From a virus (taxonomy: Duplodnaviria; Heunggongvirae; Uroviricota; Caudoviricetes): a stretch of 8,718 nucleotides of DNA. Under the pieces are notes generated by a model, which searched no databases, was not told the DNA's origin, and saw nothing but the letters and a program-made list of their open reading frames with translations. The position numbers and the translations under genes were made by a program. The stretch lies in IMG/VR virus record IMGVR_UViG_2671180458_000006; one strand, 5' to 3'. How positions within the stretch are numbered: position 1 is the first letter of the stretch; every line of letters starts with the position of its first letter. Below, piece by piece: positions 7,618-8,718 of this stretch.

Positions 7618-8697
7618 ATGCAGGCTGGTCACCAGAGTGACGCGGATATTTATATTTATGACGAGATTGGTTTCTGGGGTGTTACAGCGAAGCAGTTTAT
7701 CAGTGATCTGAATGCACTGGGCGATATCACCCACATTAATCTCCATATTAATTCACCGGGTGGCGATGTCTTTGAAGGCATCGCCATTTTTAATGCGCTG
7801 AAAACACATGGTGCGTCCATTACCGTTTATGTCGACGGTGTGGCGGCGTCAATGGCGTCGGTCATTGCGATGGTAGGAAACCCGGTCATTATGCCGGAAA
7901 ACACCTTCATGATGATTCATAAACCATTTGGCTTTACGGGCGGTGATGCGGAGGACATGCGCACCTATGCCGACCTGCTCGATAGAGTTGAGGCGGTTCT
8001 GTTACCCGCTTATGCACAGAAAACCGGGAAAACCACCGATGAAATTGCTGCCATGCTGGCGGATGAGACCTGGATGTCCGGTGCCGAATGTCTGGCACAG
8101 GGATTTGCTGATCAGGTGACACCAGCCGTTAAGGCAATGGCATGTATTCAGTCAAAACGTACAGAGGAATTTAAAAAGATGCCGGAATCCATTCGAAATA
8201 TGATTACTCCGCCACGCAACAGTGCTCCACGCGTACAGGATGATGGACCTGCAGCCTCCCGGACGCCAGTGCAGGCAGCAGCACCCGTGGTGGATGAAAA
8301 CAGCATCCGTGCGCAGGTCCTGGCAGAGCAAAAAGCGCGTGTAAACGGTATTAATGATCTGTTTGCCATGTTTGGCGGGCGTTATCAGTCGTTGCAGGCT
8401 CAGTGTCTTGCCGATCCTGAATGTTCGCTGGAGCAGGCCCGCGAAAAGCTGTTGAACGAGATGGGGCGCGAGTCCACGCCATCCAATAAAAATACCCCGG
8501 CTCATATTTATGCCGGTAACGGTAATTTTGTGGGGGACGGGATCCGCCAGGCGCTGATGGCGCGCGCCGGGTTTGAAAAAACTGAACGTGATAATGTCTA
8601 CAACGGGATGACCCTGCGTGAATATGCCCGTATGTCACTGACTGAACGTGGTATTGGTGTTTCCAGTTATAACCCGATGCAGATGGTCGGTGTGTAG
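7618..8697 (+). CDS. Second ClpP-like prohead protease / scaffold / capsid fusion paralog, 3'-truncated (apparently by IS insertion)
   Basis: Starts at ATG 7618; the track start at 7357 overlaps the portal and precedes the homology. It aligns along its length with the N-terminal ~330 aa of the 2415-4304 protein at roughly 50% identity, with the same SPGGD, GVAASMAS and MMIHKP motifs and a ~40-aa insertion. Homology ends abruptly at ...SYNPMQMVGV, where the sequence becomes IS-end-like, and the TAG stop (8695-8697) lies inside the putative IS terminus. Confidence 0.8.
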   Translation: MQAGHQSDADIYIYDEIGFWGVTAKQFISDLNALGDITHINLHINSPGGDVFEGIAIFNALKTHGASITVYVDGVAASMASVIAMVGNPVIMPENTFMMIHKPFGFTGGDAEDMRTYADLLDRVEAVLLPAYAQKTGKTTDEIAAMLADETWMSGAECLAQGFADQVTPAVKAMACIQSKRTEEFKKMPESIRNMITPPRNSAPRVQDDGPAASRTPVQAAAPVVDENSIRAQVLAEQKARVNGINDLFAMFGGRYQSLQAQCLADPECSLEQAREKLLNEMGRESTPSNKNTPAHIYAGNGNFVGDGIRQALMARAGFEKTERDNVYNGMTLREYARMSLTERGIGVSSYNPMQMVGV

Positions 8698-8718
8698 TGG
8701 CACACTAAATTTGGCCAC
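8693..8718 (+). mobile_element. Left terminal inverted repeat of an IS3-family element (IS911-like), partial at window end
   Basis: TGTAGTGGCACACTAAATTTGGCCAC (8693-8718) matches my recollection of the IS911 left end TGAAGTGGCACACTGAATTTGGCCAC at 24 of 26 positions, including the terminal TG. It coincides with the point where the capsid paralog loses homology. Only 26 bp are visible and the match is from memory. Confidence 0.5.

What the first reader, a model, noticed from the sequence alone, without database searches (positions are those of the whole stretch)
8693..8718. IS911-like insertion truncating the portal-linked capsid fusion gene
The last 26 bp of the window match the left inverted repeat of IS911 as I recall it (24 of 26 positions, terminal TG), starting exactly where the second protease-capsid paralog loses homology and acquires a stop codon. 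An IS insertion here would inactivate the major capsid gene of the lambdoid module, leaving the cassette copy as the only intact capsid gene in the region.
Basis: partly seen in the sequence, partly recalled or inferred. Interest (0 to 1): 0.45.

Follow-up and report, generated by a model that had tools for sequence, protein, structure and literature searches.

The report
IS3-family element end truncating prophage capsid gene
The last 26 bases of the window are the left end of a common 1.26-kb E. coli insertion sequence (IS3 family, closest to ISEc31, not IS911 itself) that cuts off the capsid half of a defective prophage's protease-capsid gene, which is ordinary prophage decay.

Summary
Homology to intact protease-capsid fusion genes stops exactly at window 8692. 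Bases 8693-8718 are identical to the first 26 nt of a 1258-bp IS3-family element with TG...CA ends, orfA/orfB and an A6G frameshift. About 99.9% identical copies are widespread in E. coli.

The element is not IS911. It is 63-67% identical in DNA to the K-12 IS911A fragments, and about 93% identical to ISEc31, its nearest named relative.

The IS supplies the stop codon (TAG, 8695-8697). The gene product ends at residue 382 of 675, keeping the ClpP-protease/scaffold part and losing the capsid domain.

It is not a simple insertion. In all four complete genomes with this junction, and in a 1.3-Mb contig, the IS right end abuts a 5'-truncated side-tail-fibre gene (stf) of the Qin prophage. There is no target duplication, and about 13.8 kb of head and tail genes are missing.

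The "cassette" capsid gene (2415-4304) is intact. It belongs to a helper-embedded PICI satellite integrated in the prophage's large terminase gene, a class described in 2023.

Verdict: a real but ordinary, already-known kind of feature. Interest is low.

The parts
8693..8718 (+). First 26 nt (left inverted repeat, terminal TG) of a 1258-bp IS3-family insertion sequence. The rest of the element lies beyond the window end.
   Evidence: 26/26 identity to the left end of complete copies (L005:5010-6267, L015:10394-11651 and others). The homology break with intact genes falls at 8692/8693. No chance matches in shuffles.
7549..8697 (+). Truncated ClpP-like prohead protease / major capsid fusion gene. 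It encodes 382 aa: 381 native residues plus Val, then TAG from the IS. The capsid domain is lost.
   Evidence: PGAP marks the identical gene as a pseudogene 'missing C-terminus'. The intact homologue is 675 aa, with Clp_protease at 31-191 and Phage_capsid_4 at 377-672; the window protein keeps only the protease hit. Translation.
6096..7604 (+). Portal gene of the Qin-type lambdoid prophage. It appears intact.
   Evidence: Coordinates transferred from L001 CDS 10797-12305. Pfam Phage_portal_2 on identical products.
4772..5887 (+). attR core (TGGATG, 4772-4777) followed by the 3' fragment of the GpA-type large terminase gene, which is split by the satellite.
   Evidence: Intact terL (L001) aligns to L028 up to position 9478 on the left and from 9473 on the right, a 6-bp overlap. 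PGAP annotates 'terminase gpA endonuclease subunit, missing N-terminus'.
1..4771 (+). Right part of a ~9.9-kb helper-embedded PICI-type satellite: primase 3' end (1-805), SSB (1335-1757) and an intact protease-capsid fusion gene (2415-4304).
   Evidence: Gene content of L003, L011, L028 and L029. Pfam domains. The class is described in PMC10111431.

Best explanation
Window 8693-8718 is the left terminal inverted repeat of a 1258-bp IS3-family insertion sequence. The element has IS911-like ends and is an ISEc31 relative. It encodes OrfA (103 aa) and, by a -1 frameshift at A AAA AAG, a 392-aa OrfAB transposase. It is co-oriented with the late operon of a Qin-type defective lambdoid prophage.

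The IS replaces everything after codon 381 of the protease-scaffold-capsid fusion gene and supplies the stop codon, so no capsid domain can be made.

The copy sits at a deletion junction rather than a fresh insertion. Its right end is joined to codon ~50 of the side-tail-fibre gene stf, and about 13.8 kb is absent (capsid domain, decoration protein, all tail genes, J, lom, and the stf 5' end).

Inferred, not shown: one IS inserted in stf and a second IS event occurred in the capsid gene. The second event was either another copy in direct orientation followed by homologous recombination, or an IS-end-mediated adjacent deletion. Either route leaves a single IS with mismatched flanks. By analogy with IS911/IS3, the element moves by copy-out/paste-in through a circular intermediate; this was not tested here.
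For: Shown:
- Exact breakpoint at 8692/8693.
- 26/26 identity to the IS terminus, and the full IS anatomy: 1258 bp, TG...CA ends, IRL and IRR matching at 20/26, orfA at 73-384, A6G at position 333, OrfAB of 392 aa. PGAP calls it 'IS3 family transposase, programmed frameshift', and Pfam finds HTH_Tnp_1 and rve.
- About 99.9% identical full copies in many E. coli chromosomes and plasmids, up to 17 places per genome.
- All four complete genomes with the junction show capsid'-IS-'stf-tfaQ-pinQ-ydfK-'ydfJ, i.e. the Qin locus. The same is seen in the 1.3-Mb contig L005 and in L007.
- Flanks are GGTG | IS | GTTA, so there is no duplication. The same IS elsewhere makes a clean 4-bp duplication (AAAG, L018).
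- In phage mEp460 the two breakpoints map to 5426 and 19234, a span of 13,807 bp.
- Strain a7 carries the identical IS-'stf junction with a different truncated left flank (J'), so the stf junction exists independently of the capsid junction.
Against: The window stops 26 nt into the IS, so its own downstream sequence is unseen.

No complete genome in the collection combines the satellite-bearing left half with this junction.

Three draft contigs (L004, L006, L008) join capsid'-IS to the fdhE region instead. L006 is 100% identical to window 4480-8718.

No ancestral simple insertion, in either the capsid gene or stf, was found among 5,426 complete genomes. The order and mechanism of events are therefore inferred.
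Confidence: 0.85

Rival explanations
1. Simple transposition: the IS inserted into an otherwise intact capsid gene with a 3-4 bp target duplication, and the 3' half of the gene and the tail genes follow the IS.
For: This IS does make such insertions. In strain 2017.15.01CC it sits near the 3' end of the homologous gene with an AAAG duplication and the rest of the prophage downstream. The window itself cannot exclude it.
Against: Every sequence that shares the exact junction and crosses the IS leads to 'stf or to fdhE, never to the capsid 3' half. Among complete genomes the capsid'-IS left junction occurs only in the four deletion-type genomes.
Confidence: 0.06
2. In the window's genome the IS links the truncated capsid gene to the fdhE/fdo region. 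This would be a real ~2.4-Mb inversion produced by recombination between the Qin IS copy and an inverted IS copy next to fdhE.
For: Contigs L004, L006 and L008 read capsid'-IS-fdhE, and L006 is identical to window 4480-8718. The four complete genomes carry a second, inverted copy at IS110'-IS-fdhE, so the substrates for that inversion exist.
Against: All four long-read genomes have the un-inverted arrangement. The joins occur only in short-read or Logan contigs crossing a 1258-bp exact repeat. Assembly GCA_000944015.1 contains both versions (L005 and L006), which overlap identically from window 4480 onwards, as expected for a repeat-resolution artefact. By inference from K-12 map positions, an inversion between a terminus-proximal and an origin-proximal site would badly unbalance the replichores.
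Confidence: 0.08
3. Chance resemblance: the 26-mer is not part of any IS, and the stop codon arose by local mutation or a sequence/assembly end artefact.
For: Only 26 nt are visible in the window.
Against: The match to the IS terminus is exact at 26/26. The break falls at the terminal TG. Near-identical contigs continue into the IS. None of 200 shuffles matched.
Confidence: 0.01

Closest known systems
ISEc31 (IS3 family; name as used by NCBI PGAP for close relatives)
   Same: Same length (1258 bp). 93% DNA identity over the full length. Left IR matches 25/26. Same orfA/orfB organisation.
   Different: About 7% divergence. PGAP labels the ~99.9% identical copies of the window's element only 'IS3 family transposase', not ISEc31. 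I could not query ISfinder, so the element's formal name is unknown.
IS911 (IS3 family; K-12 copy IS911A as curated in NC_000913.3)
   Same: Similar terminal repeat: TGxAGTGG...AATTTGGCCACCTGA, 21/26 to IS911A. Same A AAA AAG frameshift motif followed by GGCTAC. Same gene layout and size class.
   Different: Only 63-67% DNA identity to the two IS911A fragments and 56% OrfA identity. It is a different IS species within the same clade.
K-12 Qin cryptic prophage
   Same: Same chromosomal locus and flanking genes: ydfU/ydfT, cspB/F/I, essD, rrrQ, gnsB on one side and tfaQ, pinQ, ydfK, 'ydfJ on the other.
   Different: This variant still has terS, terL, portal and the protease half of the capsid gene. 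Its internal deletion is bounded by an IS. From my own knowledge, K-12 Qin has a different and larger deletion of the head-tail region; this was not examined here.
Helper-embedded PICI (HE-PICI), Tommasini, Mageeney & Williams 2023 (PMC10111431). This is context for the 'cassette' capsid gene.
   Same: [quoted passage not shown] It has integrase/AlpA-type, Bro, primase and late (capsid gene) zones.
   Different: The paper's gene-A sites are in the Terminase_1 profile (132, 245/246). Here the target is a GpA-type terL at codon ~329, and 'GpA' does not occur in the supplements held. Integrase clade membership was not tested.

Membership tests
IS3 family insertion sequence | Length about 1.2-1.5 kb with imperfect terminal inverted repeats ending 5'-TG...CA-3' | tested here: met
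   1258 bp. IRL is TGTAGTGGCACAC...; IRR (reverse complement) is TGTAGTGGTCAAG...; they match at 20/26.
IS3 family insertion sequence | Two overlapping ORFs (orfA with HTH, orfB with DDE/rve) fused by a programmed -1 frameshift | tested here: met
   orfA at 73-384 (103 aa). A6G motif at position 333. The modelled OrfAB is 392 aa, equal to the called product. Pfam finds HTH_Tnp_1, HTH_21 and rve. PGAP annotates 'programmed frameshift'.
IS3 family insertion sequence | 3-4 bp direct target duplication flanking the copy | tested here: not met
   At this copy the flanks are GGTG | GTTA (or ATCT), with no duplication, so it is a rearrangement junction. The element itself can make one: AAAG at L018.
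IS911 (specific element) | Near-identity to IS911 in DNA and transposase. From memory, isoforms of one IS are typically >90-95% identical. | tested here: not met
   63-67% DNA identity and 56% OrfA identity to the curated K-12 IS911A fragments. IRL matches 21/26. A literature search for the recalled IRL string found nothing.
ISEc31 (specific element) | Near-identity over the full length | tested here: inconclusive
   93% DNA identity over 1258 bp and IRL 25/26, but PGAP does not give the ISEc31 name to this variant. The ISfinder threshold could not be applied here.
Helper-embedded PICI (context element, window 1-4777) | Integrated inside, and co-oriented with, a helper prophage late gene, with a short att identity block | tested here: met
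   Clean 9,898-bp insertion in terL with a 6-bp TGGATG overlap. All genes lie on the late-operon strand.
Helper-embedded PICI (context element, window 1-4777) | Integrase belongs to the HE-PICI integrase clade; satellite excision upon helper induction | not tested
   No integrase phylogeny was made. Excision requires an experiment.

The most novel reading that the evidence does not exclude
The truncation might be tied to the embedded satellite rather than being mere decay. The prophage keeps terS, a terL that is restorable by satellite excision, the portal and the protease/scaffold half of its capsid gene. It has lost its own capsid domain, so the satellite's 51%-identical protease-capsid fusion is the sole capsid source. 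That could be a fixed satellite-plus-remnant unit that makes satellite-type heads and borrows tails from other resident lambdoid prophages. A second non-excluded oddity is a real IS-mediated ~2.4-Mb inversion joining Qin to fdhE in some strains.
Probability: 0.04. Interest if true: 0.45.

Novelty: already known. Interest (0 to 1): 0.1.

Why it matters
It matters little beyond annotation. It shows that the lambdoid (Qin-type) module in this window is dead several times over: the capsid domain and all tail genes are deleted and terL is interrupted. The only intact capsid gene belongs to an embedded PICI satellite.

It also corrects the IS identity (ISEc31-like, not IS911). And it warns that short-read contigs crossing this IS can be mis-joined, as in the capsid'-IS-fdhE contigs. 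It is a small example of IS-anchored deletion driving prophage decay.

Tried and rejected
1. Looked for a simple-insertion ancestor. A query of 300 bp capsid + IS + 300 bp stf against 5,426 complete E. coli genomes found the capsid'-IS junction only in the four deletion-type genomes. It found the IS-'stf junction only in those four plus strain a7. No copy had matching flanks.

2. Considered that the IS links to fdhE (L004, L006, L008). I judged this probably a repeat-mediated mis-join. The complete genomes carry a separate IS110'-IS-fdhE copy, and one assembly contains both versions, which overlap identically.

3. Tried to verify the recalled IS911 IRL string in the literature. There were no hits, so I used the curated K-12 IS911A instead.

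4. Considered that the 'cassette' was a new kind of capsid-bearing island in terL. It fits the published HE-PICI class.

5. Checked target duplications at other copies (the fdhE copy and an ISEc31 copy in ypjA). Those are also rearranged junctions and were uninformative.

6. No protein database, structure or RNA searches were run, because the DNA evidence was decisive.

Full report
**Observation**

The last 26 bases of the window (8693-8718) read TGTAGTGGCACACTAAATTTGGCCAC. The sequence occurs once in the window. It has no counterpart in 200 dinucleotide-preserving shuffles, even allowing 3 mismatches.

Megablast of window 7300-8718 against 5,426 complete E. coli genomes gave about 2,000 genomes whose match stops at query base 1393, which is window 8692. 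Four genomes match through to 8718. Phages with an uninterrupted gene (cdtI, mEp460, HannyBb, Tritos and others) also stop matching at 8692. A three-way alignment shows the intact gene continuing ...GGTCGGTG|CGGCGTTCATAC... where the window and strain FHI_NMBU_11 have ...GGTCGGTG|TGTAGTGGCACAC....

**What follows the window end**

The 382-aa truncated product (window 7549-8697) is on record in 119 blocks of the assembly collection. In every locus retrieved, the 26-mer is the start of the same element. L011 is 99.95% identical to the entire window and runs a further 60 nt into the element. L006 is 100% identical to window 4480-8718.

A complete copy (L005:5010-6267, L015:10394-11651) has these features:
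- It is 1258 bp long with TG...CA ends and imperfect inverted repeats (20/26).
- orfA is at 73-384 (103 aa, HTH_Tnp_1).
- An A AAA AAG slippery motif sits at position 333.
- A -1 frameshift gives a 392-aa OrfAB with HTH_21 and rve domains.
- PGAP annotates it 'IS3 family transposase, programmed frameshift' (WP_085968792.1).

Full-length copies at about 99.9% identity occur on many E. coli chromosomes and plasmids, with up to 17 places per genome.

**Which IS it is**

The window 26-mer matches three reference left ends as follows:

| Reference | Match to 26-mer |
|---|---|
| This element | 26/26 |
| An ISEc31 copy | 25/26 |
| Curated K-12 IS911A left end (TGAAGTGGTTTACTGAATTTGGCCAC) | 21/26 |

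Over its full length the element is 93% identical to ISEc31. It is only 63-67% identical to the two K-12 IS911A fragments, and OrfA is 56% identical. It is therefore an IS3-family element of the IS911-like clade and an ISEc31 relative, not IS911. A full-text search for that string found nothing.

**Effect on the gene**

The intact homologue is 675 aa, with Clp_protease at 31-191 and Phage_capsid_4 at 377-672. The window's product ends at 382 and keeps only the protease hit. The last Val codon is completed by the IS (G|TG), and the stop TAG (8695-8697) is IS sequence. The cut falls at the start of the capsid domain, at ...PMQMVG|AAFIHS... in the alignment.

**Not a simple insertion**

The prophage is the Qin-type element at the ydfJ locus. 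In all four complete genomes with the junction (FHI_NMBU_11, JNEC-KY202, JNEC-KY174, CFIAFB20190167) the order is terS, terL, portal, capsid', IS, tail-fibre gene, tfaQ, pinQ, ydfK, 'ydfJ. L007 and the 1.3-Mb contig L005 show the same.

The right flank GTTACAGCATGGACGTTGAG... lies inside the side-tail-fibre gene stf. The annotated ATG there is internal Met ~52 of the mEp460/lambda-type Stf. The flanks are GGTG | IS | GTTA, with no target duplication. The same IS does make a clean 4-bp duplication (AAAG) where it is simply inserted near the 3' end of the homologous capsid gene in strain 2017.15.01CC.

Mapped on phage mEp460, the two breakpoints are 5426 and 19234. So 13,807 bp are missing: the capsid domain, the decoration protein, all tail genes, J, lom and the stf 5' end.

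Strain a7 has the identical IS-'stf junction but a different truncated left flank (J'). It lies in a lambda-type prophage at the bio locus. The stf junction therefore exists independently of the capsid junction.

My inference is that the IS sat in stf and a second event produced the present single IS with mismatched flanks. That event was either a second direct copy in the capsid gene followed by homologous recombination, or an IS-end-mediated adjacent deletion. Exchange between prophages using the IS and stf/tfa as homology arms could also be involved. No intermediate was found among complete genomes, so the route is not shown.

**The fdhE variant**

Three draft contigs (L004, L006, L008) read capsid'-IS-fdhE. 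All four complete genomes, and six others, carry a second copy of this IS between an IS110 fragment and fdhE. In FHI_NMBU_11 it is in inverted orientation relative to the Qin copy.

Assembly GCA_000944015.1 contains both capsid'-IS-'stf (L005) and capsid'-IS-fdhE (L006). The two contigs are identical from window 4480 onwards. I read the fdhE joins as mis-resolution of a 1258-bp exact repeat. A real ~2.4-Mb inversion is not excluded, but it would place origin-proximal and terminus-proximal DNA together, which I infer would be strongly counter-selected.

**Context of the 'cassette' capsid gene**

Window 1-4771 is the right part of a 9,898-bp island cleanly inserted at codon ~329 of the GpA-type terL. 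The attL and attR sites share TGGATG, and attR is at window 4772-4777. ORF 4775-5887 is just the terL 3' fragment.

The island carries integrase, a small HTH protein, Bro-N, DUF4222, a D5-type primase, SSB and a 629-aa protease-capsid fusion. That fusion is intact and 51% identical to the prophage's own. The same core, with an identical capsid protein, sits at chromosomal sites (cspD/clpS; near mug/rpoD) with other integrases.

This is the 'helper-embedded PICI' class of Tommasini, Mageeney & Williams 2023. That paper also notes that Gram-negative PICIs commonly carry a capsid gene (PMC10111431). The paper's gene-A sites are in the Terminase_1 profile. 'GpA' is absent from the supplements held, so this particular site may be unlisted.

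**Verdict**

The element is not IS911, and it is not a simple insertion but the scar of a 13.8-kb IS-bounded deletion in a decayed Qin prophage. This is an ordinary feature that RefSeq pipelines already annotate, and its interest is low.

Noticed in passing
window 1-4777 (attR core TGGATG at 4772-4777); whole island L028:2460-12357: A ~9.9-kb satellite (integrase, Bro-N, DUF4222, D5 primase, SSB, intact protease-capsid fusion) is cleanly integrated at codon ~329 of the prophage's GpA-type terL. This is a helper-embedded PICI as described in PMC10111431. The GpA-terL site does not appear among that paper's named sites in the text held.
   Followed up: partly
L022-L031: The identical 629-aa satellite capsid protein and the primase/SSB core occur with different integrase modules at chromosomal sites (between cspD and clpS; near mug/rpoD) as well as inside terL. 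So one satellite core has swapped integration modules.
   Followed up: partly
L001:13738-14958 and K-12 L014:2542-3762: IS30 is inserted at exactly the same position in two IS elements that are only ~65% identical: K-12 IS911A and the ISEc31-like copy of strain FHI_NMBU_11. In both it lies right after the frameshift motif ...ATATTAAAAAAGGCTAC, with a 2-bp duplication AC. Other genomes also show IS30-interrupted copies. This suggests a strong IS30 target hot spot conserved in IS911-like elements.
   Followed up: partly
L018:4123-5380; L003 ~23841-25100: The homologous protease-capsid gene has been hit independently by IS elements in other lineages. The same ISEc31-like IS sits near its 3' end with a 4-bp duplication in strain 2017.15.01CC. 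IS600 hits it in O121:H19 strains, whose prophage also carries the terL-embedded satellite.
   Followed up: partly
L017/L033:20001-21258 (strain a7): An identical IS-'stf junction (same nucleotide, same orientation) occurs in a different, lambda-type prophage at the bio/att-lambda locus, with a truncated J gene on the left. This implies transfer of the IS-stf junction between prophages or a very specific insertion site.
   Followed up: partly
L004, L006, L008 versus L019, L020: Short-read or Logan contigs join capsid'-IS to fdhE. Complete genomes instead show a separate inverted IS copy at IS110'-IS-fdhE. This is either a probable repeat-induced mis-assembly in public drafts or a rare large inversion.
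   Followed up: partly
L003:7797-8801 versus L003:19211-20329: In O121 strains the terL fragment left of the satellite is only ~72% identical to the Qin-type terL, while the right fragment is ~99% identical. The two sides of the embedded satellite therefore come from different terminase alleles, giving a mosaic or recombinant helper.
   Followed up: no
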